A stretch of 63,970 nucleotides of DNA, the filler included, from Klebsormidium nitens (lineage: Eukaryota; Plantae; Klebsormidiophyceae): NCBI GenBank assembly GCA_000708835.1. It is 6 parts of 6 records of this genome, joined end to end, with 100 filler letters (N's around TTAATTAATTAA, not from the genome) between each part and the next. Parts side by side here need not be neighbours in the genome. Positions count along the whole stretch, not along the records: positions 37,216 to 62,094 come from DF237463.1; 5 more parts are not named here. The stretch is one strand, 5' to 3'. Shown piece by piece: positions 29,461 to 49,600 of this stretch. The notes beneath the pieces are model-generated. The model was not told the DNA's origin. It saw only the letters and a list, made by a program, of their open reading frames with translations, and ran no database searches. Position 1 is the stretch's first letter. Every line of letters starts with the position of its first letter. A program made the translations under genes and the position numbers.

Positions 29461-29745
29461 ACTCCCGGCTGCGCGCTGAACTCGCGGCCGCGCATCGTCC
29501 GTTATTATACGCTATCGACTTATTTGATATATCGAATCACTACACGACACGTGTCTGGGTTACTGCTTCACCGCGTGACCGTCCGATAAGACCCACGTGC
29601 ACTGCGTGCGAGGGAACCGTCCGATGAGCTTTCGAGACTAAGCTTNNNNNNNNNNNNNNNNNNNNNNNNNNNNNNNNNNNNNNNNNNNNTTAATTAATTA
29701 ANNNNNNNNNNNNNNNNNNNNNNNNNNNNNNNNNNNNNNNNNNNN

Positions 29746-30039
29746 TCGGAATGCTCGCGCGTTGAGCGATGAGCACTCAGCTGACGTGAGTCCGTTGGAT
29801 TGAGCAGGCATTTTGAGCGCGGAATGCGTCATTCCGCATAAGCAGCCCCCGCTTATGAGCGGAACCCTGACCGCCGCGGCCGCCTGACCGCCAGGCGGCG
29901 CGCGGCCGCGACTAGCTGACTGGGCCACTGAACGAGAAGACGTCTTGCTTAAAAGAAGAAGACGCTCAGTTAGCTCTTCAAGAATACCACAGAAGGAAGC
30001 GCCCGTGGCGCCTCCAGACTAGCTCTACGCTTCTTTCGA
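29746..30039 (+). repeat. Split direct repeat A1
   Basis: Reads identical to 36385-36678; left end truncated by a gap. Confidence 0.9.
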
Positions 30040-30062
30040 TTGGGTATTTGGCGCGAACTAGG

Positions 30063-31097: not shown

Positions 31098-32152
31098 GTG
31101 GTCGTACACAGTTCAGTTGCAACGGAACGAGAACCAATTAATTCCGAGTTCCCTGAGACGCAGGCTTCGGTCGGTCTATAGCCTTGCTAGGGACCAGAAG
31201 GTGGTCTCCTTGGTGATCGATGGTGTTATAATAGCACCGATCACGTCAAGAAATGCAGTCGACTAAATGTCAAAGCCCTGTGGGTCTAATTTTTAGATTG
31301 AACGGTAAGCTGACTCGGTTAGAAATTGGACAACTTGGTTGAACGTCCCGTTAAAGAAGTTGTTCAGGAGAGTTTGTTGGAGCCCTGTGGGCATAGCTAA
31401 AGGAGCTGCGGACAAGTGAAGGTCCTGAGCAGGTGCTCGGCCATGTGCGCCATCGTGACGTCACCTTTTGGGCTTAATGCCCGGGCCCTGTGGGCATGAC
31501 AGGGGTAGAATTGCTACCTTGTGAGTCTGAAGAGCATAAAGCTCGGCCATGTGAGCCATATCTGGGCATAGACGCCCCTCAAATGTGAGACGAGCCTATA
31601 AAAGGCAGGCATGTGTCCTAACGCCGGTTTATGCCGGCTTGCAGAAGGAACAACGGCAACAACAACCAAGGCAACTGGAACCAGGGCAACTGGAACGCCC
31701 CGCCGGGGGGACGGCAGAACTTCGGAGGCGGCCAAGGCGGCGGCCGCGCTAGGTTTGGCCGCGGCTTCGAGGGAGATAGGGAGAATCAAGGGGATCAAGG
31801 AGCAGGGCAGAATAGAGGCAACAGGTAAACCCGCGAGCGGTTCATAAAAATGTGAGGTTACGTCAGTGTTACGTGATCGGTAGAGATAGCTTACGAAAGT
31901 AGGAAAGGATCAGTGAGGCGAGCGAAAGAATGTTAGATGGTCGAAGTAGACAGCGTTAACGACACCTCAGAAGTTGTAAAAGCTGTGCAGAAGAACTGAG
32001 AGATTCAAGTATGTTCAAGAGCCTTCTTTGGCCCCTTTCAGACTCACGACTCCTGGCGCGTGCGTTCAGAAATTCTAACTATGTTCACCAACTGCCAAAA
32101 GTGTATGGGCTTGAATGAATGATCGTCTGGTAAAGTACCGACGGGAAATTAT

Positions 32153-34645
32153 ATGCACGGCTTTAGATTGCTGATGCATCACCGTTGCAATGACAGCGGT
32201 TCATCGCCTATGGCGCCTGCGGAGATCGCGCTGTCCGAAGCGGAGCCCTGTGGGCTCGACGCTGAGCAAGATTCATCGGAACAGCGAGAAGCTGCGCACG
32301 ACCCCTCAGTGGTCGAACCGCACTCCGACAGCACTGGGGACGTGGAACTCAGCTTCGAGTCCGCGGCTGATGAAATAGACCTAGATGCTGATCCGTTAAC
32401 AAGCGCCGGTAGCCCTTCAGATGCGTCAAAGTGGGATTTCGAGTTCTTCTCCTCTCGTTTCACGCCACGTGTCGCGGCGGCAGTGGACGCGGAGCAGCTC
32501 GCCCGCGACCTGAAGTCCCTCCTGACGGAAATCGAGGCGGGGCCGGAATTTAGCGTGATGACAGAAGAGGAGCTGTCAGCTTGGCTCAAGTCGGTCGAAG
32601 AGAAGGTGCCACCAGTCGAGAGTTTCGTGGCCGGCAGTTTCGGTCGGCACCTCCGCGCTTGGGAAGAGTTACTGAAGGATTCCACGCGGCCGGCTTCCAA
32701 GACAGTGCTGTCCTGGTTACGGAACGGCATCAAGCCGTCTTTCGTTGGCACAGCCCAGTGCGACCCCAAGAAGCTGGAGAGGGTGCGGCTCATGCTTAGG
32801 AGAACGATAGGAGAGGCAAAAGTCGGGGAGTGGCTCTCAGGGGAGGTGCCGCACCCTGTGGAATTTCCCAATCACCGCTCTTTTTACGAGAACGCGGAGT
32901 TCGGCATCAAGACGGTCGGCGAGATGTTGGTTAACGGATCGGTTGCGCTTTTCGCGCCGGGTGAGCGCAAGCCTAAGGTAGTTAACCCCCTAGGAGTAGT
33001 TAACCTCCCCAAAGGGCGCCTAGTGTTAGATGCCGGCTACGTGAACGCGTTCTCGAAACCGCACCCGTTCAAATACGAAACGTTGCGCGACATCCTCACT
33101 TTTCTGGGGGCCAACGGCTTCTTCTCGACTTGGGACTTCAAGGCGGGCTACTACCACGCCCTCATTCATCCCCGCTTTCGGACTTACTTCGGCTTCAGAA
33201 TTGGCAAGGCCTACTTCCAGTACAACGCCATGTGCTTCGGCTGGTCCGAAGCCTGCTACGCCTACACGCTGCTTACTCAAGAAGCAGCCAAGGAGCTCCG
33301 GGTCAGGGGTATCCCCGTTTCGAGTTACCTGGATGACGGTTTAACCGCCAATCAGAGCTTTGCTCTGTGCCTCTGGCTCGTTGTGGTGATCATCCGCTTT
33401 CTCACCCTTCTCGGGGCGGTGTTCAGCCTGCCTAAGTGCCAATTCTGGCCCTCCAAGACCGGCGACTGGCTAGGATTCGTGGTCGACACTCAAGCGGAGC
33501 AGTTCAGAGTTTCGGAGGCGAAGTTAACCAAGGTCAAGGCGGTCTTAACCGAACTCCTTAACGCGGCTGACGTCAGCCCCCGTCTCCTCGCCAAGGTTGC
33601 GGGAAAGATCATCGCAATGGGCCCCGCGGTGCTGCCGGCCTCCTTGTTCAGTCGGCCTTTGTTTCAGGCGATGCAAGGTCGCATCTCCTGGGATGAAGTT
33701 TTTCCCACGCCGTTGGCGGCCAAAACCGCCGCTAAACTCTTCTTGGAGCGTCTCGACGACTGGAACGGAAGGCGGTGGTTTCCCCGCCGAGTCCTAATCG
33801 AAGCTGCTTCCGACGCATCCGACTTCGGGTTCGGGGGATCCCTCTACATCGCCGGCAGCCCCCCCTTCCACGTGGCAGGTTCTTTGACGGAGGCAGAGGT
33901 TAAGCAGTCGAGTACGGCGCGCGAAATGGTGGGTTTTCTTCGCGTTCTTCAACAGGCTGTCCTTCACCACCGCCCTCTCCTCTCCGGGGCCGCTGTTTTG
34001 CTGATTGGCGACAACCAAGGCGCGGTGGCGGCCGTCAATAGTATGAGAAGCTCGGCGCCCGACGTAAACGGGGTTCTCCAGGAGATATTCACGCTCTGTT
34101 CAGAAGGAGATTTCGACGTCCTAGCTCAGTGGAAACCGCGCGCAGAACTGGCAGTAGAGGACGCGCTTAGTCGGGTGCCAGACGCTTCCGACTGGGGCCT
34201 TGCCCCGGCTGTCCTGAAAGCCGCCGTCTCGCTGTTCGGACAGCCAGACGTGGACCTCTTCGCTTCGGACACGTGGCATGTAGCAGAGCGGTTTGTGACC
34301 CCTCGCTACATGCCGGGCTGCTGTGCAGTCGATGCCCTTCGAACGGACTGGCGGACTCTTGTAGAGCAAGGCGAGACGGCGTGGATATTCCCGCCGGTGA
34401 GGGCATTGCCAAGCGTCATTCAGTCCATCCGCAACTTTAGAACGGATGCGATCCTGGTAGTCCCGGAAGCGACCACCACTAATTGGTGGCTAGAGTTAAT
34501 GCACTTAGGCAGTGACGCGAGCATGGCAGGCCCGCTCGAGATTGAGCGATCCACGGATGCGTGCATTCCGAGCAGGCGAGTGCCTGCCGGAACCGTAAAC
34601 CCCGCTTTGTACAAGCTCAGAGTATTCAAAATAAACTGGAAGTAG
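32153..34645 (+). CDS. pol ORF: reverse transcriptase, RNase H and DIRS-type DNA N6-adenine methyltransferase-like domain
   Basis: RT: GRLVLDAGYVN, WDFKAGYYH, MCFGW, YLDDGL. RNase H: SDASDFGFGG, SSTAREM, GDNQGAV, DALSR. MT: DVDLFAS and WIFPP. Confidence 0.92.
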   Translation: MHGFRLLMHHRCNDSGSSPMAPAEIALSEAEPCGLDAEQDSSEQREAAHDPSVVEPHSDSTGDVELSFESAADEIDLDADPLTSAGSPSDASKWDFEFFSSRFTPRVAAAVDAEQLARDLKSLLTEIEAGPEFSVMTEEELSAWLKSVEEKVPPVESFVAGSFGRHLRAWEELLKDSTRPASKTVLSWLRNGIKPSFVGTAQCDPKKLERVRLMLRRTIGEAKVGEWLSGEVPHPVEFPNHRSFYENAEFGIKTVGEMLVNGSVALFAPGERKPKVVNPLGVVNLPKGRLVLDAGYVNAFSKPHPFKYETLRDILTFLGANGFFSTWDFKAGYYHALIHPRFRTYFGFRIGKAYFQYNAMCFGWSEACYAYTLLTQEAAKELRVRGIPVSSYLDDGLTANQSFALCLWLVVVIIRFLTLLGAVFSLPKCQFWPSKTGDWLGFVVDTQAEQFRVSEAKLTKVKAVLTELLNAADVSPRLLAKVAGKIIAMGPAVLPASLFSRPLFQAMQGRISWDEVFPTPLAAKTAAKLFLERLDDWNGRRWFPRRVLIEAASDASDFGFGGSLYIAGSPPFHVAGSLTEAEVKQSSTAREMVGFLRVLQQAVLHHRPLLSGAAVLLIGDNQGAVAAVNSMRSSAPDVNGVLQEIFTLCSEGDFDVLAQWKPRAELAVEDALSRVPDASDWGLAPAVLKAAVSLFGQPDVDLFASDTWHVAERFVTPRYMPGCCAVDALRTDWRTLVEQGETAWIFPPVRALPSVIQSIRNFRTDAILVVPEATTTNWWLELMHLGSDASMAGPLEIERSTDACIPSRRVPAGTVNPALYKLRVFKINWK

Positions 34646-34744
34646 GACGTACAGGTGGTAGCAACGGTCGAGAAGTTTGGTGCAAATGACTACAAAACTC
34701 AGACATAACACAACTGTGCAGCCGCCTGACTAGAGGACGCCATG

Positions 34745-34860
34745 GGTCGAGTCTTAGTGACGCAGAATTTTGGATCAGCCTAGAGCGACTGTGGCACGTA
34801 TTGGTCGAGTCTTAGTGACGCAGAATTCTGGATCAGCATAGAGCGATTGTGGCACGTATT
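34745..34860 (+). repeat. 58-bp tandem duplication between the converging pol and YR stop codons
   Basis: GGTCGAGTCTTAGTGACGCAGAATT...GTGGCACGTATT twice, with about 3 mismatches. Confidence 0.85.
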
Positions 34861-35053
34861 AGTAGTCAGAATCGAATGCATTCAATAAGCGCACCTTGGG
34901 CAGCGCGCGCGCGAGCGCCTCACATGTGCAAGCAAGGGCCAAAAATTTGTCACGGCACTCAAACAACTGCCTATGCGTCAAGCTGAAGCGCTTGTTGAAA
35001 TCGTGACCACGAATTGGCCGTCAATTACAAAAGTTCTCTGAGTCGCAAAGTTC

Positions 35054-36094
35054 TCACTTGCGCCACACTTCCTCTACATATAATCGGAAGGCCGCATAAC
35101 TCTTCCACCTCCCTAACTCCATTAACTGCTTAACGTTATAGTTCAGGTTCACCGCCGCATGCTGGACGGCGGAGCGACGGAAGCTATGCACAGTTTCGCC
35201 CTCGAACAGTCCGGCTTCCTTAAGCCGCTTTTGCAACCTTTTTCTCAAGGTGTCGCTGCTCATTGGCTCATTAACAAAACCGGTCCGACTCCTATTCATG
35301 GCCCGGAACAGGAAGCCATCCTCTCCGACTGGATGCCCTCCTTCTACCATACCGAGTAACAACGCCTCAGCAGCCGCCACGAAGGTTAGCCGGCTCTGAG
35401 ATTCCGGCGCCGCGAGCGGAATCCGCGCGCTGGGCTCCTGCCGGACTGTCTTACTCCAACCCGGGTAAGCCACCTGTTCCTCCAACTCCACTTGCCGTCG
35501 TTGCAGCTGCCCGCACTCCTTCCCCCGTGCGAGCGTCTCCCAAAGATACAACACGGCCGCCTGGTCCGTCAACAGAACGCACCTCTCTAAACCAGGGGAG
35601 CTCTCCTGGATCAGCCGCGCAAGGTGAGCTAGCAGTGCGTCCAGCTTTGCTTCCGTGAAGACTTTAGCGCACTGAACCTTCACCCCCTGCTCGTGCAACA
35701 TCTTCTCGTATCCCACGCGGAATGACTTCACCACCTCGGCTTTGGCGGGATTGGCCCGCCCTTCGAAACCGAGGAGGGAGTAAGACTTTGATAAGTCTTT
35801 TACCACGTGGGTCACAGCAGACGCTGACGGGATGGGCTCCCCCGTCCCGGGCAGCTTGGTCCTGCAACCGGCCTTATGATTGGGAATCCAATCCCCCAGG
35901 ATGAACGCCCCAACGTCAGCAGCCGTGGCGGTCTCGACCGTAACCCCGAATGCATTCCGCGCCAGGAAGTCTTGGTATTGCTGGAACGTCCGCTTGCGGC
36001 TGCTGTTGCTGGCTGCGTTAACACTCTTCTCGGCTATCTTTCCGAAGCTCGACAGCGCCCCGTCATAAAACTGCTGAGTCTGCTCCGCACTCAT
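35054..36094 (-). CDS. Tyrosine recombinase of the retrotransposon, antisense to pol
   Basis: LWETLARGKE (R), HSFRRSA (HxxR), LGRWKS (W) and FRLYV (Y). The ORF is open to 36193; the likely ATG is 36094. Confidence 0.9.
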   Translation of the reverse strand: MSAEQTQQFYDGALSSFGKIAEKSVNAASNSSRKRTFQQYQDFLARNAFGVTVETATAADVGAFILGDWIPNHKAGCRTKLPGTGEPIPSASAVTHVVKDLSKSYSLLGFEGRANPAKAEVVKSFRVGYEKMLHEQGVKVQCAKVFTEAKLDALLAHLARLIQESSPGLERCVLLTDQAAVLYLWETLARGKECGQLQRRQVELEEQVAYPGWSKTVRQEPSARIPLAAPESQSRLTFVAAAEALLLGMVEGGHPVGEDGFLFRAMNRSRTGFVNEPMSSDTLRKRLQKRLKEAGLFEGETVHSFRRSAVQHAAVNLNYNVKQLMELGRWKSYAAFRLYVEEVWRK

Positions 36095-36246
36095 TTTTCC
36101 GCTTGCTCCGCAGGTCCCACCCAAGCCCACCCCACGAATTTCCCGCAGCTTTTCCTCGCATCTTCGTTGAAAAGCCAACCTGCAGACGGACAACCACTGT
36201 TATCTTCCATAATTGTCGTTTGGCGCAAACGATTGTCTTTTTGGGG

Positions 36247-36678
36247 CGGCGTTTTCGGCACAACAGAGGCGCTTTGCAGCCGTCCGGGCGCCCCCCAACA
36301 CCCCTATCGGAAGGTTGATATTAAATGGAGCTGACAATTTTGACTCTGTGATTGGTTAGCAGAGTGTTCTTATGATTTTAGTCATCGGAATGCTCGCGCG
36401 TTGAGCGATGAGCACTCAGCTGACGTGAGTCCGTTGGATTGAGCAGGCATTTTGAGCGCGGAATGCGTCATTCCGCATAAGCAGCCCCCGCTTATGAGCG
36501 GAACCCTGACCGCCGCGGCCGCCTGACCGCCAGGCGGCGCGCGGCCGCGACTAGCTGACTGGGCCACTGAACGAGAAGACGTCTTGCTTAAAAGAAGAAG
36601 ACGCTCAGTTAGCTCTTCAAGAATACCACAGAAGGAAGCGCCCGTGGCGCCTCCAGACTAGCTCTACGCTTCTTTCGA
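36247..36678 (+). repeat. Internal B1-A2 junction of the split direct repeats
   Basis: B starts at 36247 (matches 37081-37115) and precedes A2 (36385-36678). Confidence 0.85.
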
Positions 36679-37080
36679 GAAGCTTCGCTTCGACCCTTCC
36701 CACCCACCCTGAGTGGATAATAACGCATGCTAACGCCTTACCTGTCTTCTGCCGGTGGGCCCCATCCTGTCAGCGCAGACTCCATGGCTCCCGGCGCCTT
36801 CACTGTCAAGTATGCTCAAGTACTGCCTGTCTTCCCTTCGCTGCAGAAAGCCATCTCGTACAGACTCGGCCCCGTCGCGTCACGCCGCGCCCGCCCAACC
36901 CCCCCAACCCTGAGTCACCGCGGTCAAACAATCCCGACCGTCCATCGAACTTTCAGAAATGTCGACACCATTAAATATCAACCTTCGGTCCGCGGCGACC
37001 TACTGCGCAGGTCAACCCGTATCGGTCGCCGCACTTCCCCGGACGCTCATACGCTTACCTCCGGTGCCCCTATGCCAACC

Positions 37081-37115
37081 CGGCGTTTTCGGCACAACAG
37101 AGGCGCTTTGCAGCC
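37081..37115 (+). repeat. Split direct repeat B2, truncated by a gap
   Basis: CGGCGTTTTCGGCACAACAGAGGCGCTTTGCAGCC is identical to 36247-36281. Confidence 0.85.
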
Positions 37116-37339
37116 NNNNNNNNNNNNNNNNNNNNNNNNNNNNNNNNNNNNNNNNNNNNTTAATTAATTAANNNNNNNNNNNNNNNNNNNNNNNNNNNNN
37201 NNNNNNNNNNNNNNNGCAGACCAGAAGCCTAGATTCCAGGACTCAAACGTGGAAAGTATATTTTATAAAACAACCAGCTTGCAAGTTCTATAGCTCTCCT
37301 CTACATGCAAACGCTTGCTCTGACCGTCGTCACCTACTC

Positions 37340-40180
37340 TTACGTATGAGATTCGTAGCCAGATTTCAGACGAACCCCCGAAAGGCCTTTGAACTGTCCT
37401 CGAGATTGTACCTGGCTATCCGTGAATCGACCGTCTGCAACCACCCAATTCTTTTCTTCAGCATGCTCCAAGATGCGCTTTTTCAGCGCCGTTGCCGACA
37501 GAGAGCTTGTCAGATCTTCTTCCTTCAACCAAGCTCGGAACACCTCTCCGAGCCGTTCGCCAACGGCTAAGTGCCATGTCGCTCTTTCTCCGGCTTGAAT
37601 ATCTTCGAAGTCGAGACAATCGACGATCCATCGCCTAGCAATGTCCGAATCGTTGATGTATGCTTTAACAGCTTCCTCCATGACACGAGGTCTGCGCATT
37701 AGTGGTAGCGTGTTGGGATTCGCTCGCTTGAATTCATGATAACGTTTTGCTCCCTCTGTGTACCAAGAAAGACCCTCATCTCGACCTTGGTCGCTTTTCA
37801 AGTAGGTTTCCAATGTTGTATCGATAAGCTTTTGGCGTGGTTTGCTAGAGTCAAGCTTTTCGGGAGGTAAGAAAGTGACCAACATCGGGAGTAGTGCCAA
37901 GCGTCGGGTGACACAGTAGGATACGTTCTGAAGAATAGGCTTGTAGTTCGTGTTGAGGACGGTTTTCACAGTAAGCTCAAATGTCTCCTGCCTGCTATGC
38001 AGCTCGCGCCCTGTAGTGGTCCCCCCGCTTGATAGGGCTTTCATTGCGGCTTCATTCAAGACTGCTTTCTCTCCCGACTCGTCGGTCTCCGCGAGACGCC
38101 CGCCTCGAAGAGCCATGATGTGGCTCGAAGCCGCGCCAGCCGACCGCTTACCGGCTTCAATGATGCAGTCTTCCGACATAACGACAGCGTAACTGCCTAG
38201 AACTTCGAGACTTGCCAGCTTTGTCAACGATTTTCCATTAGCTCCATTGCCTTGCTTGACAAGGAACAATTGTTCACTCATATCTGCGGTCATACAATAG
38301 CCGCAGAAGAGCTGATACCATTCGAGTACTTCTCTGTCATCGTTGAAACAATCAAGCAGGAACCTCTCGAATCGGCTTTCGGCCTTGGGCATTCCACGAA
38401 AAGTTGCTTTCGATGCGCGCGAACACAAATGAGCAGGATGAAATGCGAGCAACTTTCCGCTCTCGGTGTTAATGACGCCGTTCTGACAGGCAAACAGGAA
38501 CGGATTGGCGATATCAATCATCTCGCTGAGAGGTTGGGGAGCCTGCAAGGAGTTCACGACAAATTCAAGACATACACGAACCTCGGATCCCCGTGTCAGA
38601 TCCACCACATCTCGCTTCGTTGGGAAAGGATACGTTTTGTTGACCACCCTCCACGCAGTGCTGCATGCTTTTCTTTCTTCTTCGGTTGTTGGGTTCAATG
38701 CCCAATCTGGAAGAACTGGTTCTGGCGTTGATAAGACGTTCTGCTCTGTTGCAGAGCCTCTCATATGTGCGCAAATCTCCCGTTTGAAAGCATTCAATCT
38801 CTGTTTCGAATACCAGGTCATGATACGAGCCATGTGGTTGCTGAAGACGGTTTGTATATGGAACGCGTTATCGACTATCCATCTGCGGCCGTTCCAATAG
38901 TGAAAGCATTTGCCCTCAGCAATGATGCGTCCGTCGACGAGATACATGGCTGAGAAGATCGCAGCCATTCCTCGATAGCGCTGCGTCACATTACGCCGAA
39001 TAAGATTCATTTGTGCTTCCACGGCATCCTGCGACAGCGTTCTCATATTGTTTGGAAAGGTACTCCAGTCATGAGTTGGGTGCAAACGTACAGGATTGGC
39101 ATCCAACAACGACACTGGTATTGGAATATTGCCGAGCTCCGTGAGAGGCTTCTCCTTGCATTCAGAGCCAAAGCATCGATAGAATATCGTCCATCCTCGC
39201 TTCACGAGCGTCAGGTTGTTGCTACCAGTGTGGTGATGACCATGTATGCAGGTTCGAGGACCATGACAGATGAACGAATAGAGCATACCATATGGACCAC
39301 GGGAGGTCACGCTGCCAGAAAAGCGAACATTTGCGTCGAGTCCAGCGTCCTGTAACAACTGCATCATCGCATCAGCAATCTTCTCGTGCTCGAGTGCTTG
39401 TCTATTGTGTGTGTCATTGGTACCCACTTCCATTTGCATTGCTTCTTCGACAGTGCTTGATTCAAGCCCCCTTGTTTGCTCGGAATCAACACCGTTTGCC
39501 GGCAAATCTTGGGTTCGATCGCTCGAAGTCGACACGAAACTCTTGTTTGCAGATCTCCCAGCAAAATCGTTGAGGAATTGGATCACCCATGATGGAGCTG
39601 GTCGGATGTTTGTCCTTAAGGGTTGTGCGCACCAGGTGTAATTCAATCCAATCTCAGGTGAGCCTGGCGGGGCCAGAACGATGCCTCCATCTCCACGGCC
39701 ATCGATCCCGAAATACTGACCCTCATAGTCCACTCCAGCAAAACACTTTCCTGATTGGAGTCCGTTTTTGAGTGATCCACCATACGAGAAGTAATAATGG
39801 AGCCCCCCGCTTGCAGAAATGGCCTTTAGAGTATCTGGATCTCCGTGTTCCGCAATCAATCTATTCCAGAGAGGCATGCCAGCTTGAAGATCTTTCTCTG
39901 GTTTGTCTCGTGTGTCTATGTCAAGCACGAAGATGTCCGAAATGGCTCCCGTCTTGATTGCCAAGAAGTTGTATCGTTCTATTTCAATCTTTTCCATGAT
40001 GCGATCCCGCGCCAAACTCCAATCCGACGCCGTTCTTATTGCGTGATTGCCCTTCGTATGCGGCATAGTTCCAAGAATCTCCTTCGATCCTTTGCCCGTC
40101 GCTCTAACTTTTGCGGGAACAGCATATAGTCCCTCTCTTGCATACGCGTCTAAGACGTGCGCAATCGAATCCGTTGCCAT
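37340..40180 (-). CDS. Bifunctional primase-polymerase (AEP Prim-Pol) fused to a D5-like SF3 helicase, intact and intronless (~946 aa)
   Basis: AIKTGAISDIFVLDID, SASGGLHYYF, GIDGRGDGGIVLAPP; Cys/His segment CIHGHHH..YRCFGSEC; D5_N FACQNGVINTESGKL; Walker A GNGANGKS; Walker B LAETDES; motif C LNTNYKP; TRRL. The likely ATG is 40180, and the ORF is open to 40390. Confidence 0.92.
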   Translation of the reverse strand: MATDSIAHVLDAYAREGLYAVPAKVRATGKGSKEILGTMPHTKGNHAIRTASDWSLARDRIMEKIEIERYNFLAIKTGAISDIFVLDIDTRDKPEKDLQAGMPLWNRLIAEHGDPDTLKAISASGGLHYYFSYGGSLKNGLQSGKCFAGVDYEGQYFGIDGRGDGGIVLAPPGSPEIGLNYTWCAQPLRTNIRPAPSWVIQFLNDFAGRSANKSFVSTSSDRTQDLPANGVDSEQTRGLESSTVEEAMQMEVGTNDTHNRQALEHEKIADAMMQLLQDAGLDANVRFSGSVTSRGPYGMLYSFICHGPRTCIHGHHHTGSNNLTLVKRGWTIFYRCFGSECKEKPLTELGNIPIPVSLLDANPVRLHPTHDWSTFPNNMRTLSQDAVEAQMNLIRRNVTQRYRGMAAIFSAMYLVDGRIIAEGKCFHYWNGRRWIVDNAFHIQTVFSNHMARIMTWYSKQRLNAFKREICAHMRGSATEQNVLSTPEPVLPDWALNPTTEEERKACSTAWRVVNKTYPFPTKRDVVDLTRGSEVRVCLEFVVNSLQAPQPLSEMIDIANPFLFACQNGVINTESGKLLAFHPAHLCSRASKATFRGMPKAESRFERFLLDCFNDDREVLEWYQLFCGYCMTADMSEQLFLVKQGNGANGKSLTKLASLEVLGSYAVVMSEDCIIEAGKRSAGAASSHIMALRGGRLAETDESGEKAVLNEAAMKALSSGGTTTGRELHSRQETFELTVKTVLNTNYKPILQNVSYCVTRRLALLPMLVTFLPPEKLDSSKPRQKLIDTTLETYLKSDQGRDEGLSWYTEGAKRYHEFKRANPNTLPLMRRPRVMEEAVKAYINDSDIARRWIVDCLDFEDIQAGERATWHLAVGERLGEVFRAWLKEEDLTSSLSATALKKRILEHAEEKNWVVADGRFTDSQVQSRGQFKGLSGVRLKSGYESHT

Positions 40181-40304
40181 GCTTTTCCACAGACCGAAGG
40201 AGGTTCGGAGCCCCCTTATATTTTCAACCCCAGAAAATTTTGTTTGACATGGAACGCGGCACTCGACGGAGCCCACGCTTGCAGAGACGTGTTGGTTAGT
40301 ACGA

Positions 40305-40541
40305 CTAAATCCAAGGAAGAGCAATCTGTGCCTCATAAAGTCGCTGCCTCGTCCGTCTACTTGTCTTGCTTCCTTTCGCAATTCGTTCAAGAGCCTTCTT
40401 CAAGAGAATCTCATCCTTGTGTACTTGATAGTAACTCTTTGAATATTCTCTTTTCTTCGCCTGATGCTCGTTCTTATAGATGCTCGCCTCCAAACAAGCA
40501 GCACACGCGGTCGATCCATGATTGTGATTCGTCGATTCCAT
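40305..40541 (-). CDS. Small basic putative DNA-binding protein (~78 aa)
   Basis: MESTNHNHGSTACAACLEAS..KKREYSKSYYQVHKDEILLKK.. fills the space between the YR and the primase genes. The K/R-rich helix resembles those in small viral proteins. Confidence 0.55.
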   Translation of the reverse strand: MESTNHNHGSTACAACLEASIYKNEHQAKKREYSKSYYQVHKDEILLKKALERIAKGSKTSRRTRQRLYEAQIALPWI

Positions 40542-40637
40542 AGTTGGAGTGCAATTGAAGCCTCCTAATAATTCTAATATAGAAAAAGTGCTTCTCAAAG
40601 AACGCACACAAAGTGCAGACAGAAGACAATTGTCCAC

Positions 40638-41681
40638 TCATTCGAATCGTCTATTATAGAGTTCATCTGCAGTCCGCATGCTATGGCCCATGTATTGGGC
40701 CTTCGCTCTCACTTCACCACGGGACATCAACTTTGGGCTCTGTTCAGTATGTGAGATGTGTCGAAGCAAAGTGCAGCTGAGGTTTCTACCGAAATGGCGT
40801 TGACCAAGGTCGTTGAGAACTACGGTGAAATTTGATATCGGTTCATCTTTCCAGACGAGATAATGCCTCTTGAGGATCAAATGTTTTCTAGGAATCAGAT
40901 TGAAGGATCTGAGTATAACCTTCACGAGATCTTCGGGGATCTCAAGGCGACGAACTCCATCCTTTTCAAGAGTCTTGTGTCGACCAATATGAAAGAAACA
41001 CTTCTTGGGATCGTCGTTCAACTCGACGACGTTGATGTCACCCGGTTTGACCGCAACGCAATCATTCTCGTGTTCCCTCATGAAGAAGATGCATTCCGCG
41101 TACTCATTCCGTAAAGGTCCCAGCGGCATCGTGTAGAGTGCGAGGATCAGATGGTCTATCACCAGCTGCTTGTCATGGCGATCTAAGCGTTCCTTCTTCA
41201 GGAATCTCGGCACGACATAGCGATTGATTTGGTCGTCCAGTTCTGATCGCTTGTCTATAAGCTCGGACCAAGGAATCCAATTGTTGACTTCTTTTGGCGT
41301 CTTTCTCTGCATAGAGTGATCGAGCTCCTCCTCGGTTGGCTTCATCCTCTGCATGTACTTCGAGTAAGCCGATTGCGACTTTCCAGAAGCAAGAATAGCG
41401 AAAGGGGCTGCATAATTACTCTTCGTCAATGATTTAAGGAGCTTGCCATCACGCGACGTGAGACTCTCTATGGTCGAAATCACCTGCTCGTGGTCCTCGA
41501 TCCAGTCGAGACTGTTCATCACGCCCGGCCCAAAGTCTCCAGCCGCATATACGGTTTTAAGTTGCCTGATGTAAACAGACACTGTTGTATCTGATCTGTT
41601 TGGCGGAGCTCCACGGAGAACCTTATCCGGAGATTGGACCTTCAGTTTTCTGCGTACCTCTGCTTCGAAGTTGGAATCCAT
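40638..41681 (-). CDS. Tyrosine recombinase/integrase (PLV-type), catalytic residues intact
   Basis: PLRNEY (R), GRHKT (K), TLLRHISH (second R), MGHS (H) and ADELY (Y) near the C-terminus; N-terminal core-binding-like region TTVSVYIRQL. Confidence 0.85.
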   Translation of the reverse strand: MDSNFEAEVRRKLKVQSPDKVLRGAPPNRSDTTVSVYIRQLKTVYAAGDFGPGVMNSLDWIEDHEQVISTIESLTSRDGKLLKSLTKSNYAAPFAILASGKSQSAYSKYMQRMKPTEEELDHSMQRKTPKEVNNWIPWSELIDKRSELDDQINRYVVPRFLKKERLDRHDKQLVIDHLILALYTMPLGPLRNEYAECIFFMREHENDCVAVKPGDINVVELNDDPKKCFFHIGRHKTLEKDGVRRLEIPEDLVKVILRSFNLIPRKHLILKRHYLVWKDEPISNFTVVLNDLGQRHFGRNLSCTLLRHISHTEQSPKLMSRGEVRAKAQYMGHSMRTADELYNRRFE

Positions 41682-41743
41682 CGCCGTGAAACTGCCTCGT
41701 TGTTACTAATCTTCACAGATATTTTTTGTAAGATACGAACGTA

Positions 41744-42559
41744 TCAGAGTCGATCTGGATTGAAGCGCTTTCCATTGTACTGGATCTTGCTCAGGAACAT
41801 GGACCAGTTACTAGCAGACATAGCCGTCTGCGGCTGAGTGATCGAAGTCAAGAAGTGATCTCGAGGTATCAATCGCAGGGTCCGATGAAGATACTTGCTC
41901 AGCATCTTCGATAGAGGGATTCGATCCCCATCTTTGAAGACGAGTTTGTAATCTCCCTTGCGTCGTGAGGTCTGCAGCAAATAGCTCGCACCCTCGATCT
42001 GTTGGCCCTTCGGCATGATTGGAAGCTCGTGCACTTTTACCCGACGACGATGCTCCTTACTCAAGAGCATATGCCATTCGAGGACGAGATGCCACATACA
42101 GAGCTTCACCTCCTTAGGAGTGAGATCTCGATCCATGTCCTCGAGACTCAACTGTCTGACCTTGCGAGCGAGCTTCTTTCCGAATGTCTCGATCTCTTCA
42201 ACGGTCATCTCTGATCTGGCGTCCAAGGTCTTGGTCTCAATCTTTCGTTGAGCGGACTCCTTTAGGGCCTTGTTTTCCTTCCGAAACGGCTCATAATAAG
42301 TTTGATAAGCCTCCACATAACCGAGTTTGCGGCAAATAGCAAGAAAAGGGGCCAAACGAGTACGCCTGGATCCAGGGTTATCATAGCGCTCTAGAACAGC
42401 TGCGACGATCTTCTGAGCCTTGGTCTTTATCCACGAGGGGTCTTCGGGCATCTTATCCTGGAACATCATGTTCCATAGAAGCTGAATCCCCTTGAGATAC
42501 TGCTCAGTGGAACTTTCGGTTCTGATCCCATCAGCTAAGACCTTTCGTAGGGTATCCAT
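41744..42559 (-). CDS. Degenerate tyrosine recombinase paralog (~271 aa) ending before the catalytic C-terminus
   Basis: Collinear with the 40638 YR by eye: SSTEQYLKGIQLLW/TTVSVYIRQLKTVY, PSWIK/LDWIE, APFLAI/APFAIL, HLVLEWH/HLILALY, LRLIPRDHFL/FNLIPRKHLI. TGA falls at the LLRH-equivalent Arg position. Confidence 0.75.
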   Translation of the reverse strand: MDTLRKVLADGIRTESSTEQYLKGIQLLWNMMFQDKMPEDPSWIKTKAQKIVAAVLERYDNPGSRRTRLAPFLAICRKLGYVEAYQTYYEPFRKENKALKESAQRKIETKTLDARSEMTVEEIETFGKKLARKVRQLSLEDMDRDLTPKEVKLCMWHLVLEWHMLLSKEHRRRVKVHELPIMPKGQQIEGASYLLQTSRRKGDYKLVFKDGDRIPLSKMLSKYLHRTLRLIPRDHFLTSITQPQTAMSASNWSMFLSKIQYNGKRFNPDRL

Positions 42560-42670
42560 AGTTATGACCTGCCTACGATGATGTAAGAAAATAATTTTAT
42601 AACGTCTCCCATTTTGCAACAAGTTATTTAAAAAAGGTTCGTCACAATAAAATGACGTCGAAACCTCTCC

Positions 42671-42769
42671 TAAACGTTTATTTTCTTGAAACTGCGTGCG
42701 GGGGGCGGAAAATTGTTGAGAAATCTCGAGATTTTTCAAGAGAATAACTAGTTATTTCAATAGCACGTG
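42671..42769. promoter_or_regulatory. AT-rich palindrome cluster upstream of the YR pair (candidate promoter, att site or origin)
   Basis: TAAACGTTTA (42671-80), 24-bp TTGAGAAATCTCGAGATTTTTCAA with 1 mismatch (42716-39), AATAACTAGTTATT (42743-56) and CACGTG (42764-69). Confidence 0.5.
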
Positions 42770-42949
42770 ACACTTTTTTGCTGGCCTCTCCACATGCGCT
42801 TCATTCCACTAACTCTGCTTGTGGTGGAGGCAATTTTGAAATCATCATACAGCAGAGCAAAAGACGTCGTACATAAGGCCAGGCTCCAAACCAGATGATT
42901 TCATGAAGCATGGAGCTAGGATCATGTTTTATCTGCAGGCCAGCATTTT

Positions 42950-45900
42950 AGTATATACCTAATGTAGATAGTAGATATTTCTCATCAGGTAGCTTTGGCG
43001 CGTGTGCTGCTTCCTCGAAGCTCTTTCCACACAGACACACGTTCTCCTCTGTCCGATGCTTCTGCTTTTCACAAGCTTCTTCAAAGGCGGCATAATCCAC
43101 AAGTCTTTATTCCGCTCAGAGGTGAGAAATTGGTGTTGCTGCTTTTTGACTGCTTGCAGATAAGGTTATTTTCATGAAAGCTACATTCTTCCTCCTTCTC
43201 CATTCTTTCTTGTTTTCGAATCTTGTCTTTCTGAGAATTTTTGAACAATCTGTTTCGATCCGCATTGTGTTGCTTTCCATAATGTCCGAGCTGCTATTGC
43301 AAGTTTGGACATCTGGTTCCGTTGATGGAAATAAGTTGTCACAAAAGCCAACACAATGCTGATGCTTAATATTGTTCAGCAGGCTCTTTTCAAAATGCTT
43401 ATTAAGCCTCAAGGTCAAACATGCCTATGTGCAGAAGGGGGTCCTGCAGCCTTAACTACCTGCAAGGCAGGCGGCTTAGAATGCATGTCAGCAAAAATTT
43501 TTACTACCATACTCTGAATGCTTGCTTTGCTTGACTGTTCTGCTTCCTCGCCGTAGAGCAGCTGGTGAAAATCGTAGATTGATACGGCCCCGACACGCTC
43601 CCTGTAAATTGCCGATCGGATGCCTTTCGTAGAAAGGCGTCAGAACCGTAGCATTGAGGCTCTCGCACCTCAAGCTCGAAGAGAAGAGCGTTGGCGGCCC
43701 TCTTGAGCGCAATTCCACGATGTTCCGCATAGACCATGCTAAGATCTCCTGAGTTGCCCAGAGACCGAAGCCTCTCACACTCCAAGGCCCACAGATGCTC
43801 CGTAGCATCAAGGAGCGTCGACAGAGGGGACCGACCGGAGGCGCTAGGGCAGTTGGCACTCGGTTCCAAGCAGAGGAGGTTGGTCGCGTAGATGTCCCGA
43901 AGGAGCGGACGCAGTGCTGCTGCAAAGGCGTACAGTCGAGGACCCGTTTGCACTTCACCAATTGCGTGCAGCCGGAGAATGGCTGCTAGAATCGGCCCAT
44001 TGTTGGCGAGGTAAGCAAGTCCTCGCTCGTCAACTGGCCCCTCGAGCAACAGGTGTCGAAGCAGCTTTAGCGTCAAGATGTTGCCAAACACCCACCTGTA
44101 GCGGGGTATCAGGAGGGCGTGCAGGAGGGCCGTGTATGGCTTGAAATGGGTCGGGCACCAACCCGTGGGCGCCACAGGGCCCCCCTTCAGCACCCCGTCC
44201 ATCCACGGTCGACGCGCGACCATCCAGACCGCACAAGTCTTAGGGTCGGCGCAAATCGCGGATTCCGTCGCAAGGTCGATCGGGGTCCCCACGTTTGCCG
44301 GCAACCTCTGACGCATGGCCACAAATACCTCCGCCAAGAGAGGCGTGTTTGACCCTTGAGCAGGCGCCTTGCGAAAAGTTGCACCCTCGGAGGCCGCAGC
44401 TCGTACGGCCGGCTTCAGCTCAGACAACCCGTTCCTGAACTTCCAAGGGCAGTCGATACCCTCAAGCGGGTCGTTTGAAGGCCGCACCCCACTGATGCTG
44501 AAAGGAGTGAAACCCCCTGCCACGTGAGGTGCCTCTGGGTCCGGCTCGCAGATGCTATGCAACGTGGCTTCCGTGCTGTCCCGCATAGCACTTGAGTTGG
44601 GAAAAACGTCCCGTCAAAGTGACAACTTTGTCGCGACTGAACATACAAATTGCCAGATTTGAGGTGGACCCCTCGGTTCGCTCCGGTTTGAGAGGGCAAC
44701 TAGCTCTCTCTGCCTCAGCCTCGGCAGCTTGCACCTCAGACGTGTACAGATGAGCACAATTGGGACGTCCGCAGACGTGCTGGATCCGAGACCGGGCTGC
44801 CAAGTCGTTGAAGGCTTGCATCGCTACGTCGAAGACGCAATCGTCTAGCATAAGAGCGTCCGGCCCTTCGAGACTCATGGTTGCCATGTTGTTGGCGTCA
44901 AAGTTGAGGCTGTATGATGCTCCAAGGGCCGCCGCAAAGTGATTGCGCAGCAAGAGGCCGTGCGAAATGAGCCGCCATGTCGGAGAAGTTGAATATGCCA
45001 TCTTCCTGTTCAAGAATGGAACATGGACATGATGCATTCGAATGGAACTCCTCAAAAATTTATAGAATATATGAGCAATTAAGATATGGAATCAAATGAG
45101 AGGTTTGCATCTGTTCTGAGCATCTGTGCAAGAATGGACAACTCGCCCTTGGTGGAATAGCAGCCTCCGCGTCAACCAGCAAAGAAACTCAAGCCGCTGA
45201 TGGAAGTTTGATGGATGAATTTCTGGTCCCGTCGAATGGTGCACCCGGCCCACGGACATTTCTCATGGTTCCTCCTCAGCCTTGCCGACTCTGCGGCCTT
45301 CAGTTCACCATCCTACAATGGCCGATGTCTCCCAATGTGGGCTCGTGGTTTGCAAGAAGTGCCTCCATGCACGGTAGGAATCACACCCTCAGCCTACCGA
45401 CTAGAAGAATGCTGTCATCCCATTGGTCCACCATATTCCCCTGGTAGGGTCTAGAAATTGTACGTAAAGAGAAGGGCTTTAATCACTTTAAGTAGTCCGG
45501 AACTGCCTCAAGACTCAAGGGTAAAGGACGTGACCCTAGCCTTTAAGTACCGGAGCCACTCCGTACGCCACGCGCGCTGCTCGCGCACATTCGCAAGGGC
45601 ATGTGCCAATCCTAGTATGCTACCATGGCTACGTTGAAATTAACCGTCGGGCGAATACGGCGGACTCTTCCCGTGACTCTAACTACGGTGTCTTCCCCCC
45701 GGGCTCTTTCAGCCCCGAAATGTTTAGAGCAAGTGCCCGGTAAAACCGATTGCCCTGTAGTAGCAGTTTTAGTTGCTTTCGATTGCACTAACTAATTTCA
45801 TGCCACAATGGTCGTCGCGGCGATGGCGATTTCCGTCCAAGTAGCGCACTCCTCGGATGATAGGGGTCTCGACTTGGTGCCGTAGCCATTGCTGTGCCCT

Positions 45901-47161: not shown

Positions 47162-47650
47162 CAAAAGAAGTCACTAGCAGAATGAGCAGCAGGACGATCC
47201 CGGGGTGGTATGAAACCGGGGGAAAATACCGCACTCGCGAAATCACCAGCGGGAAAAAAACCCCTTCTCTGTAATATATGTAATTGAATATTTATGACGA
47301 AGATTTGAATATATACTAATTTATATCTATATTATTAACGCAAGGTTATAACATGCTAAGCAACCCTGCGGTTCTGGTTATGGCCGTGCTCCTTCAGAGT
47401 CCCATAACTTATAAGGGTGAAATTCACGTTAATGTGGTACGTACCGTATCAGACGTACCTGTTGAGACTAACGTGGCGGGCGGCGAGCAAGGCATTCCGT
47501 ACGCGGCGCCTAACTTCGAGTGCTGATGTCAACAAGAGGCTCAAGACTTCTGAGACGACTGCCCTGCAACAACAACAATCGGTATGAGGTTTTAAAAAGC
47601 TTCCTGCCTGTTTAGATCCAGCTGCTATTTCCTACACCAGCGACACAAAT

Positions 47651-49600
47651 ATGGCGCAGGTGCCATTGGTCCTGATGATCTTAGCCATCCTTCTGACCTG
47701 CATTGCCTTCGTCTTGCTTGTAGGTGCAGTGATTAGAGGCTTCATATACAGGAACAGAATCCTGATTGATGTAAGAGCTCTAATTCACACTTTGGAGTTT
47801 GAGGCGGAGTCAAAGAGGAATTTGGAAACAGGACTAATCGGCGCAGACTTGCGGCTCAGATCGCGAGGTTTTGCATTAGTGAAGGATCTGTCGGATCCAG
47901 TAAGTGATGCGGCCAGTGAGGGTCCTAATCTGCATGAAGCAGACACTGGGGACAAGAAGGGCAAGAGAAAGGTCGAGGAAATTTGTGGGTGTCCATCAGG
48001 AGGGCGGGCAAGCAGCTCGAGCAGTGAAGCTGTGGGGCTGGCAAGCCAGCAGGAGGAGCAGCCTGCCAGCATGGATGAGGAGTGCGCAGAAGATGCAAAG
48101 GAAAGGGGCTTCCAGTCCAGGTTGATTTTTGACGACAAGGAGGTTGAAGAGGTCAAGGAGCCGGCCTTTATAAGTGCTCGCGGCGCCGTAGTAAGCACTA
48201 GCTGCGACTATTACCTCGGAACTCGCCACAAAGAGCCAGCTTTCGGGTGCAAAGTTGTAAAGATGCATCCAATCTCTCCACACTTGAGGGCCAAAGTGTC
48301 TACAGCTGAAGCAGCTCAGAGTCAACCGGAATCCGGTGTCTCTCAAACAGTTGAAATGACTGAGATACCTGATCAAGTAGCGTTCTCAGTCGAAAGCTGG
48401 GAAGGTGACAAGACACCCAAAGGCAGTTCCCTTGAACCAATTGGATTCTTTAGATCGGACTCCACAGCTCCCAGTGCTGAGAGTACTGTTGGCAGCACAT
48501 CAGCAGCCAGTCATGTGGAAAGCACGGTGGACCTGGAGACGGCATTCATTGGAGGGGTTAAAACCAAAACTCATGAGGAGCCCGACTCGATTTTGGATTT
48601 GAGTGAGGGTACCCGGTACCTCAGTATCCAAGCTTCAAAGCTGAACATTGAGTCATACAACTACAGGATTCTGCACCACTTGGCAGACGTATTGAGTCTT
48701 TTGTTGACGGTGATGTTATTAGATGTGCGAAGGACGCACGCGCACCACGGGGTGGTGACTTTCGCCGTGTCCTTGCACTTTGCCATGTGGTTCGCGGGGC
48801 GGCTGCTGTTCATGCTTCTGTTCCCTTGGCTAGAGTTATATGGGGCTGTAGATGCTTTGAATGCAGTGTGCCAGCGCAATGGCATAGTGTACAAACGGGA
48901 GAGGAGGAGAGCACGTTATAACAAGCATAACGCCACTGGACAGAGCGTTGAAAGTTTGGGTGTGGTAGATAGGGGGGCAACATGGCATACTTTGTTGTGG
49001 TTAGCTCCTCCAGGTGATAAGCTGAGGCACTCTACTTGGAGCAAGCATACAGGACTGGGATTGCAATATAGTGAAGCTGCTGCAACCCATGCAGAGTCTT
49101 TGGAACACCTCGCCAAAGCAACGGGATCAATGTACACCATCTGTGGGACTTATGCACTGGGGATCATTGCTGGGGCCATGACGCTCGCAGTGGTCAAAGA
49201 TTCTGCTGTAGCTATACCAGCCACGGTCCTGGCATTCATCATTGCGTTGCTCGGAACGGAGGTCACTCTGACTGCGGCTCGCGCGGTTGAGTTCGCAAGC
49301 TCGGTAATCAAAGCAAAGAGGGCGGTAGACATTCTGGCTGACATCAACAACAACGCGTGCATAATTGAAAGAGCAAGCCTTAAGAGGTATGTGGCCAGAA
49401 TAGGCAAGTATGGCGGGATAAGGTTAATTTATGGAATGCTCAGAAGGGAGGTGATGCCTCTCATACGGGCTTGTGGCTATAAGCCCAACACGGTTGTTCT
49501 GATTTTCTTGAAAAGGAATGCCGAGCTGTTTGTCCCGATGAAGGTGACTCCTACCCACAGGAAGCCAGCTAGGCGTTGGCCCGTAGCTGCATCCCCCTGA
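47651..49600 (+). CDS. Intronless orphan multi-pass membrane protein (649 aa)
   Basis: Intact long ORF with an N-terminal hydrophobic helix, a Ser/Glu-rich disordered middle and two later hydrophobic clusters. An AT-rich TATA-like tract lies at 47270-47350. Confidence 0.7.
   Translation: MAQVPLVLMILAILLTCIAFVLLVGAVIRGFIYRNRILIDVRALIHTLEFEAESKRNLETGLIGADLRLRSRGFALVKDLSDPVSDAASEGPNLHEADTGDKKGKRKVEEICGCPSGGRASSSSSEAVGLASQQEEQPASMDEECAEDAKERGFQSRLIFDDKEVEEVKEPAFISARGAVVSTSCDYYLGTRHKEPAFGCKVVKMHPISPHLRAKVSTAEAAQSQPESGVSQTVEMTEIPDQVAFSVESWEGDKTPKGSSLEPIGFFRSDSTAPSAESTVGSTSAASHVESTVDLETAFIGGVKTKTHEEPDSILDLSEGTRYLSIQASKLNIESYNYRILHHLADVLSLLLTVMLLDVRRTHAHHGVVTFAVSLHFAMWFAGRLLFMLLFPWLELYGAVDALNAVCQRNGIVYKRERRRARYNKHNATGQSVESLGVVDRGATWHTLLWLAPPGDKLRHSTWSKHTGLGLQYSEAAATHAESLEHLAKATGSMYTICGTYALGIIAGAMTLAVVKDSAVAIPATVLAFIIALLGTEVTLTAARAVEFASSVIKAKRAVDILADINNNACIIERASLKRYVARIGKYGGIRLIYGMLRREVMPLIRACGYKPNTVVLIFLKRNAELFVPMKVTPTHRKPARRWPVAASP

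What the first reader, a model, noticed from the sequence alone, without database searches (positions are those of the whole stretch)
37215..42780. Candidate new self-replicating integrative element: Prim-Pol/D5 helicase plus two tyrosine recombinases, no capsid
Seen: four abutting, co-oriented, intronless ORFs (YR paralog, YR, small basic protein, Prim-Pol-SF3 helicase) in about 5.4 kb, with the primase and one YR apparently intact. Known: Polinton-like viruses, virophages and transpovirons use AEP/D5 primase-helicases, and some integrate via tyrosine recombinases. Inference: with no MCP, ATPase or pPolB visible, this may be a minimal plasmid-like or satellite element that replicates and integrates in a streptophyte nuclear genome. 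I do not recognise it as a described TE class.
Basis: partly seen in the sequence, partly recalled or inferred. Interest (0 to 1): 0.87.

Follow-up and report, generated by a model that had tools for sequence, protein, structure and literature searches.

The report
Capsid-free virus-derived jumping replicon in alga
A 5.5-kb repeated DNA element in what is likely a Klebsormidium alga carries a virus-type primase-helicase, an intact recombinase and a conserved cut-short copy of that recombinase, with no capsid gene in the visible sequence, so it likely is the copy-and-insert module of a Polinton-like virus moving on its own, a kind of mobile element our literature searches did not find described.

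Summary
The four minus-strand ORFs are real: a 271-aa tyrosine-recombinase (YR) paralog, a 347-aa YR with R-K-R-H-Y intact, a 78-aa basic protein and a 946-aa Prim-Pol/D5-SF3 primase-helicase. They are one repeat family: homologs at about 44-94% identity share contigs (27 of 58 contig keys hold two or more of the genes), one contig of another sample spans all four in order, depth collapses at ~42,780 beside two palindromes, and 30 of 46 listed coding differences are synonymous. Homologs are annotated in Klebsormidium nitens. The YR belongs to the family found in Polinton-like viruses (PLV) and algal giant viruses, not to the neighbouring retrotransposon's YR. New here: the paralog stops just before the second catalytic Arg in 12 of 12 complete homologs, so it is a conserved dead recombinase, not decay. 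No capsid or ATPase gene was found in the window, but the left end lies in an unsized gap, other copies' flanks could not be read, and K. nitens does hold PLV capsid genes. Best reading (0.6): a stand-alone PLV-type replication-integration module. Excision, circles and self-replication are inferred only.

The parts
37340..40180 (-). Prim-Pol (AEP) - Cys/His region - D5_N - SF3 helicase, 946 aa, uninterrupted
   Evidence: full-length homologs at 57-90% identity
40305..40541 (-). 78-aa basic protein with an HxH-x4-CxxC motif (possible Zn site, inferred) and a basic helix
   Evidence: 80-aa homologs at 61-65% identity; one homolog is a YR read-through fusion (P0041)
40638..41681 (-). Tyrosine recombinase of the PLV/virophage/giant-virus type, 347 aa; R191, K236, R307, H333, Y342
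41744..42559 (-). Conserved truncated YR paralog, 271 aa: DNA-binding and first half of the catalytic domain, no second Arg, His or Tyr
42716..42756 (.). Two adjacent perfect 14-bp palindromes (42721-42734, extending to 24 bp with one mismatched pair; 42743-42756), candidate binding sites or origin
   Evidence: 7 of 20000 dinucleotide shuffles of 42560-42800 reach two
42755..42810 (.). Right boundary of the repeat (approximate)
   Evidence: depth 930 to 74 (X3), 35 to 0 (X1), 26 to 0.5 (X7), 4.2 to 0.2 (X6); loose ends at 42755, 42757, 42778; an X6 contig ends at 42777
37216..37339 (.). Left non-coding tail; similarity among copies tapers towards the gap; the contig starts inside a 12-bp palindrome seen whole in other copies
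   Evidence: tables 2, 7, 8
37116..37215 (.). Assembly gap of unknown size holding the true left end

Best explanation
This is a repeated four-gene DNA element, likely in a Klebsormidium nuclear genome, that encodes a primase-helicase, an intact tyrosine recombinase and a truncated recombinase paralog, and it likely is a capsid-less replication-and-integration module of Polinton-like-virus type that moves on its own. Inferred cycle: the intact YR would excise the 5.5-kb unit as a circle at terminal sites and reinsert it without target-site duplication; the Prim-Pol/SF3 protein would open an origin in the joined ends and prime copying (itself or with host polymerases), giving copy-number gain; the dead paralog would bind the palindromes just upstream of its own gene and act as repressor or directionality factor; the small basic protein would be a DNA-binding accessory. 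Spread between cells may rely on a helper virus, as K. nitens carries PLV and giant-virus inserts. Shown: genes, motifs, folds, repeat family, gene order, right boundary, synonymous excess. Inferred: every step of the cycle, and that no copy carries capsid genes.
For: Family: YR homologs 47-92%, primase 50-90% (8 close hits of 10), paralog 43-94%. Sharing source and contig length with a YR: 12 of 20 primase, 14 of 20 paralog, 9 of 10 small-ORF contig keys; 8 of 58 keys hold three genes. Order: one 1,968-nt contig of run X7 spans 40037-41997, touching all four genes, with 171 differences; P0041 reads YR into the small ORF; K. nitens model KFL_011090010 begins with a YR C-terminal piece joined to the primase. 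Right end sharp in 4 of 4 runs laid. Left: depth tapers to the gap, at least four different left-hand continuations, and one 2,289-nt unbranched contig runs 2,140 nt leftwards from 37300, as expected of unique flank (inference). Selection: 30 of 46 listed coding differences synonymous against 23-33% expected; five catalytic residues kept in 19 of 22 near-full-length YRs. The 14 element-family YRs form one clade, 100/99, among 52 rows. No A32 ATPase in 52 flanking ORFs (the same scan finds the ATPase of viral locus L001); L001's putative capsid and ATPase proteins have no match among 1,694 window ORFs while its YR does. Barth et al. 2024 (PMC11296320) propose mobile YR + primase-helicase 'end modules' in PLVs.
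Against: The left end is in an unsized gap and no laid contig spans the whole unit. No flank of any other copy was read beyond 30 letters, so capsid genes beside other copies are not excluded; contig-length matching shows neither order nor neighbours. K. nitens holds 7 PLV capsid loci (PMC10120064 supplement). Capsid detection has little power: Pfam missed L001's putative MCP too. Krupovic 2016 found that supposed capsid-less integrated transpovirons of Bigelowiella were PLVs with divergent capsids. No empty site, circle junction, att core or TIR was found. In run X7 three contigs continue past 42778 with letters resembling the window's flank, so the right end may lie further out or the target is a preferred sequence. 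The substitution sample is the tool's best-supported subset (46 rows of more than 2,400). Many homologs are fragments, so most copies may be dead. X1 and X4 are one sample and may be the window's own strain.
Confidence: 0.6

Rival explanations
1. It is the terminal replication-integration module of an ordinary 15-30 kb Polinton-like virus whose capsid genes lie in the gap, were displaced by the neighbouring retrotransposon, or are present in other copies.
For: YR and AEP-SF3 proteins are standard PLV genes and cluster at PLV ends; the only viral loci with a YR relative (2 of 22 candidate stretches, 24% identity) carry an A32 ATPase gene, L001 also a putative MCP; K. nitens has 7 PLV MCP loci; gap unsized.
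Against: Similarity among copies tapers within ~125 bp of the primase stop and different copies continue with different sequence; right end sharp; no ATPase or capsid match on either side, including left of the retrotransposon; no close relative of primase, YR or paralog in IMG/VR.
Confidence: 0.2
2. It is a mobile cassette of a giant virus (or a satellite of one) that entered the algal genome with giant-virus DNA and was copied there mainly with viral help.
For: The paralog's best structural matches are proteins of algal giant viruses (Pyramimonas, Heterosigma 'Tyr recombinase', Tetraselmis, Aureococcus; E 1e-5 to 8e-4); helicase matches ASFV C962R; K. flaccidum/nitens has several giant-virus inserts (PMC5294986); a second, broken Prim-Pol/D5 gene and an HNH gene lie 10-15 kb away.
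Against: No giant-virus core gene among 52 flanking ORFs; the unit has its own boundary and many diverged variants; the second primase is only ~30% identical and has no YR beside it.
Confidence: 0.13
3. It is an old viral fragment multiplied passively by segmental duplication or by other transposons, or a contaminant.
For: Sits in a repeat-rich, gap-rich region beside a YR retrotransposon; many homologs are fragments; C>T/G>A excess in X3 (607 against 246 T>C/A>G) fits decay of methylated copies.
Against: Synonymous excess, intact frames and active sites across about 55% protein divergence, common right boundary, no CpG depletion in this copy (O/E 1.04 against 0.85 in 1-21900). Exact pieces of the right flank and of the element occur in the same runs; no relative in GTDB genomes.
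Confidence: 0.07

Closest known systems
Polinton-like viruses with OLV11-like YR and AEP-SF3 primase-helicase, and their 'end modules' (Yutin 2015 PMC4642659; Barth 2024 PMC11296320)
   Same: YR of the same broad family (24% to a YR in an IMG/VR contig with A32 ATPase), AEP-D5-SF3 replicase, genes clustered, integration without RVE integrase
   Different: 5.5 kb instead of 15-30 kb; no MCP, mCP or ATPase seen; no TIR found; a conserved dead YR paralog; repeated as a unit
Transpovirons (Krupovic 2016 PMC5499653)
   Same: Small, capsid-less, probably PLV-derived by loss of the virion module
   Different: Transpovirons are ~7-kb linear TIR plasmids of mimiviruses with SF1 helicase-inactive pPolB; this has Prim-Pol/SF3 and its own YR and sits in a cellular assembly
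Cryptons (and Starships): eukaryotic YR DNA transposons
   Same: YR-encoding DNA element, no RT, presumably no TSD
   Different: Cryptons carry no primase-helicase (recalled); the YR here groups with viral-type sequences; no direct comparison with Crypton or Starship YRs was run
Prokaryotic integrative replicons and phage satellites (pSAM2-type AICEs, PICIs, P4-like elements); SPbeta MrpR-type dead-YR repressors
   Same: Integrase + regulator + Prim-Pol/primase-helicase layout (recalled); P4-family primases are the nearest plasmid hits at 24-29%; MrpR/YopR and SroF appear among the paralog's fold matches at Z 6.3-7.4 (that MrpR is a catalytically dead YR repressor is recalled)
   Different: Eukaryotic host, viral-type YR, no conjugation or capsid-hijack genes seen

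Membership tests
Polinton-like virus | Major capsid protein (PgVV-like) and usually minor capsid protein | tested here: inconclusive
   None among the four ORFs; no match of L001's putative MCP/mCP in 1,694 window ORFs, but Pfam also misses L001's MCP, and the gap and other copies' flanks are unread
Polinton-like virus | A32-like packaging ATPase | tested here: inconclusive
   No Pox_A32 hit in the element or in 52 flanking ORFs of 105 aa or more, control positive; not met in the visible sequence, gap unread
Polinton-like virus | OLV11-like YR and/or primase-SF3 helicase (common, not universal) | tested here: met
   the name OLV11 is assigned by context and the paper's description, OLV11 itself was not aligned
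Polinton-like virus | 15-30 kb genome, often with terminal inverted repeats | tested here: inconclusive
   Repeat spans ~5.55 kb of visible sequence; best end-to-end match 9 bp; left end missing
Polinton/Maverick | pPolB and RVE integrase | tested here: not met
   Neither in the four ORFs nor in 52 flanking ORFs by Pfam; the replicase is Prim-Pol/SF3 and the integrase a YR
Transpoviron | SF1 (Tlr1-like) helicase fused to inactivated pPolB | tested here: not met
   Helicase is D5-like SF3 with Prim-Pol
Transpoviron | Linear episome with TIRs, packaged by mimiviruses | not testable with these tools
   No raw reads or virion data
Crypton / Starship | YR of the Crypton or captain family as the sole mobility gene | not tested
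   No Crypton or captain sequences were compared; Pfam gave no family for this YR; a replicase gene is present
DIRS/Ngaro/PAT YR retrotransposon | RT-RNase H with YR, split direct or inverted repeats | tested here: not met
   No RT in the unit; its YR family does not match the neighbouring retrotransposon YR (hhalign probability 0.5%)
Active tyrosine recombinase | R-K-(H)xxR-H/W-Y catalytic set (347-aa ORF) | tested here: met
   R191, K236, R307, H333, Y342; the first His is Thr, a position also variable in distant relatives. Activity not tested
Active tyrosine recombinase | Same set in the 271-aa paralog | tested here: not met
   First Arg kept in 12 of 12, second Arg, His and Tyr columns empty in 12 of 12 complete homologs; model aligns to Cre residues 23-295 only

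The most novel reading that the evidence does not exclude
A new group of eukaryotic self-replicating DNA transposons or integrative nuclear plasmids: a minimal 5.5-kb unit that uses its own Prim-Pol/SF3 replicase and a viral-type tyrosine recombinase to excise, amplify and reinsert, controlled by a dead recombinase paralog; the free-living form of the PLV 'end module' and the eukaryotic counterpart of phage satellites, persisting in Klebsormidium over about 45% protein divergence.
Probability: 0.4. Interest if true: 0.88.

Novelty: new variant of a known kind. Interest (0 to 1): 0.72.

Why it matters
The major groups of eukaryotic DNA transposons listed by Craig 2023 (PMC10288648, passages) include none that pairs a tyrosine recombinase with a primase-helicase and lacks virion genes. 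Barth 2024 proposed that such modules move between PLVs and giant viruses, from hints inside viral genomes; a free, repeated example in a culturable streptophyte alga makes that, and the still untested integration activity of OLV11-type recombinases, directly testable. PLV surveys start from capsid genes (Bellas 2023), so elements like this would have been missed systematically. A compact site-specific recombinase and replicon native to a plant-lineage nucleus could also be a tool.

Tried and rejected
No whole genome is held, so no assembly-wide search. Locus searches gave nothing in metagenome contigs, GTDB genomes or IMG/VR for primase, paralog, single YR or nearest outgroup; the wide YR alignment was too diverse to scan. 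No RNA holder listed. The gap could not be bridged; reads were laid only to its right. TIR search: nothing above 9 bp. YR model had low confidence (pLDDT 60); Foldseek ranked Cre first but only at E 0.05; the paralog model (pLDDT 85) had no PDB Foldseek match below 1e-3 (best Cre, 1.9e-3). Complex prediction of YR with the paralog was not available, so binding is untested. Atlas: no usable hit for the 360-aa ORF right of the element; the primase query did not complete. Rejected: the paralog as a pseudogene (same stop point across 43-94% identity); the YR as part of the neighbouring retrotransposon; the 43504-45091 ORFs as part of the unit (depth profile independent); longer N-termini from upstream TTG/GTG starts (most homologs start at or near the chosen ATG). 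An ENA contig and a JGI contig of equal length (4666) were kept as separate keys. Four look-ups of earlier findings returned nothing.
Full report
Observation. Four uninterrupted minus-strand ORFs lie between the gap at 37116-37215 and about 42,780: 271 aa (41744-42559), 347 aa (40638-41681), 78 aa (40305-40541) and 946 aa (37340-40180), with spacers of 62, 96 and 124 bp. The unit is 48% GC with CpG O/E 1.04, against 0.85 in window 1-21900.

Primase-helicase. Pfam gives Prim-Pol (E 7e-15) and D5_N (E 9e-10). A profile of 9 family members matches ASFV C962R over the SF3 domain (E 2e-18, 3 PDB sequences in all). The AEP and Walker motifs are in place (names recalled). Of 10 database hits, 8 are close (50-90%), one annotated in Klebsormidium nitens (KFL_011090010), and 2 are distant P4-type primases at 24-27%; plasmid hits are also P4-family primases at 24-29% in the rows shown.

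Recombinase. The 347-aa protein has no Pfam family. Sixteen close homologs (47-92%) gave a profile that found 851 proteins at E<=0.001 among 1.84 billion representatives, mostly 300-350 aa in the 150 listed. In a 24-row alignment R191, K236, R307 and Y342 are invariant and H333 nearly so; the profile matches XerA 4a8e (E 6.6e-5). All five residues are kept in 19 of 22 near-full-length family members. In IMG/VR 2 of 22 candidate stretches encode a relative (24%); both loci have a packaging-ATPase-type gene nearby (Pox_A32 confirmed for L001), and L001 has ORFs that I read as capsid proteins from size and context only. This fits the OLV11-like YR of PLVs described by Yutin 2015 (PMC4642659, passages). 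In a tree of 52 rows (14 family members, 37 distant hits of 290-360 aa from ranks P0106-P0149, and the L001 YR) the family is one clade, 100/99 (midpoint root, so no donor is claimed). It does not match the YR of the retrotransposon next door.

The paralog. The YR profile matches the 271-aa ORF at E 7e-22 over positions 4-269 of 320; hhalign gives 94%. Its model (pLDDT 85) aligns to Cre residues 23-295 (Z 9.5, rmsd 7.9, 229 aligned) and to YR-like proteins of algal giant viruses (8 matches at E<=0.001). Fourteen homologs at 43-94% exist. In the 12 sequences with a complete C-terminus (9 partial or frameshifted ones left out) the first Arg column is Arg in 12 of 12 and the second Arg, His and Tyr columns are empty in 12 of 12; the stop falls at the same place. 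It is therefore a conserved, catalytically dead DNA-binding form. Dead-YR repressors such as SPbeta MrpR are a recalled precedent, and MrpR is among its weaker fold matches (Z 6.6). Binding to the active YR could not be tested.

Small ORF. Nine 80-aa homologs at 61-65% identity and one YR read-through fusion were found among cluster members. The HxH..CxxC motif is kept; a Zn site is inferred.

It is one repeated unit. Using source plus longest-contig length as a key, 27 of 58 keys hold two or more of the four genes and 8 hold three; 12 of 20 primase, 14 of 20 paralog and 9 of 10 small-ORF keys match a YR key. None shows all four, but the lists are capped and the small ORF came from one cluster; the key is a proxy and shows no order. 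Order is shown by a 1,968-nt contig of run X7 (a different organism label) covering 40037-41997 with 171 differences, by the fusion P0041 and by the K. nitens model that joins a YR C-terminal piece to the primase. Twenty of 24 listed runs, from 11 studies, hold part of the stretch; five were laid. Summed contig depth falls at the 42782/42783 bin edge in 4 of 4 runs (930 to 74, 35 to 0, 4.2 to 0.2, 26 to 0.5), with loose ends at 42755-42778. Depth is no copy number, but exact flank pieces in X3 have depth 11-17 against 113-930 over the unit. Just inside the right end are two perfect 14-bp palindromes; 7 of 20,000 shuffles reach two, and the whole window has 10. On the left, depth tapers from the primase stop to the gap; copies continue with different sequences; several show a 12-bp palindrome in whose middle this contig starts; one 2,289-nt contig runs unbranched for 2,140 nt beyond the homologous part. 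I infer that the left end lies at or just inside the gap edge, but it is not shown. X7's three contigs beyond 42778 resemble the window's flank for 30 letters, which means either a preferred target or a slightly longer end.

Selection. Of the coding differences that the read tool listed, 16 of 28 and 14 of 18 are synonymous, against 23-33% expected. These are the best-supported rows of more than 2,400, and four touch stop codons. X3 shows a C>T/G>A excess (607 against 246), as from decay of methylated chromosomal copies; X1, X6 and X7 do not.

Capsid genes. None of 52 ORFs of 105 aa or more in 22013-29645 and 42781-63970 matches an A32 ATPase or capsid family; L001's putative MCP, mCP and ATPase find nothing below E 0.5 among 1,694 window ORFs while its YR finds this YR at 2e-11. 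The ATPase test has a positive control; the capsid test is weak, as Pfam misses L001's putative MCP. Left of the gap lies a separate YR retrotransposon (gag-like, RT-RNase H-methylase-like, YR; split direct repeats) whose last repeat runs into the gap. Against the capsid-less reading: K. nitens has 7 PLV MCP loci (PMC10120064, supplement file 2 rows, file cut when stored) and several giant-virus inserts (PMC5294986, passages), and supposed integrated transpovirons once proved to be PLVs (PMC5499653, passages). Whether this unit adjoins those MCP loci could not be checked.

Mechanism. YR integration usually goes through a circular donor and leaves no target-site duplication (PMC4642659; PMC12220804 passages). 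Barth 2024 (PMC11296320, passages and section 9 part 1 of 2) suggest that terminal repeats serve both as YR substrate and as origin for the primase-helicase and that such end modules are mobile. I therefore propose excision, primase-driven amplification and reinsertion, with the dead paralog as repressor or directionality factor at the palindromes upstream of its own gene. All of these steps are inferred. Confidence 0.6 for a stand-alone capsid-less module, 0.2 for the end of an ordinary PLV, 0.13 for a giant-virus cassette or satellite, 0.07 for passive duplication or contamination.

Novelty. Ten full-text searches listed no paper describing this element or a capsid-less YR + Prim-Pol/SF3 transposon in a eukaryote; I saw listings and, for eight papers, passages (also PMC12721341; PMC10288648). 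Subscription papers, Repbase and the 2024 review of the polinton-like supergroup (not held) were not seen and may bear on this, as may preprint supplements. The parts are known PLV parts, so I file it as a new variant of a known kind, with a 0.4 chance that it is a new group of self-replicating DNA transposons. Interest 0.72.

Noticed in passing
window 29746-37115: YR retrotransposon of Ngaro/PAT layout between two gaps: gag-like ORF 30048-31097, RT-RNase H-methylase-like ORF 32153-34645, opposite-strand YR 35054-36193; 100%-identical split direct repeats (29746-30039 = 36385-36678; 36247-36281 = 37081-37115), so probably a recent insertion.
   Followed up: partly
window 52700-58300, minus strand: Second Prim-Pol/D5/SF3 gene, broken into several frames and interrupted by a tandem repeat at 53880-54612; about 30% identical to the element's primase; no YR beside it.
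   Followed up: partly
window 50210-51585: His-Me/HNH endonuclease ORF (286 aa) next to an intronless response-regulator receiver fragment; an apparent histidine-kinase fragment (by eye) lies at 29096-29536. Possibly remains of a larger viral insert.
   Followed up: no
window 43500-45400: A separate repeat with ORFs of 360 and 166 aa, no Pfam or Atlas hit, present at high depth in other organisms' runs independently of the element.
   Followed up: partly
window 47588-49600: Intronless 649-aa ORF with predicted hydrophobic stretches, no Pfam family, CpG-depleted (O/E 0.59).
   Followed up: no
proteins P0102, P0249, P0250: A more distant 345-aa YR subfamily (37% to this YR) on at least three JGI contigs of 12-48 kb, sister to the element's clade; may mark a related element in another host.
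   Followed up: no
window 29600-29612 and 42691-42701: A 10-bp match between the sequence left of the retrotransposon's gap and the element's right end; probably chance, but it would fit if the retrotransposon had inserted near the element's left end.
   Followed up: no
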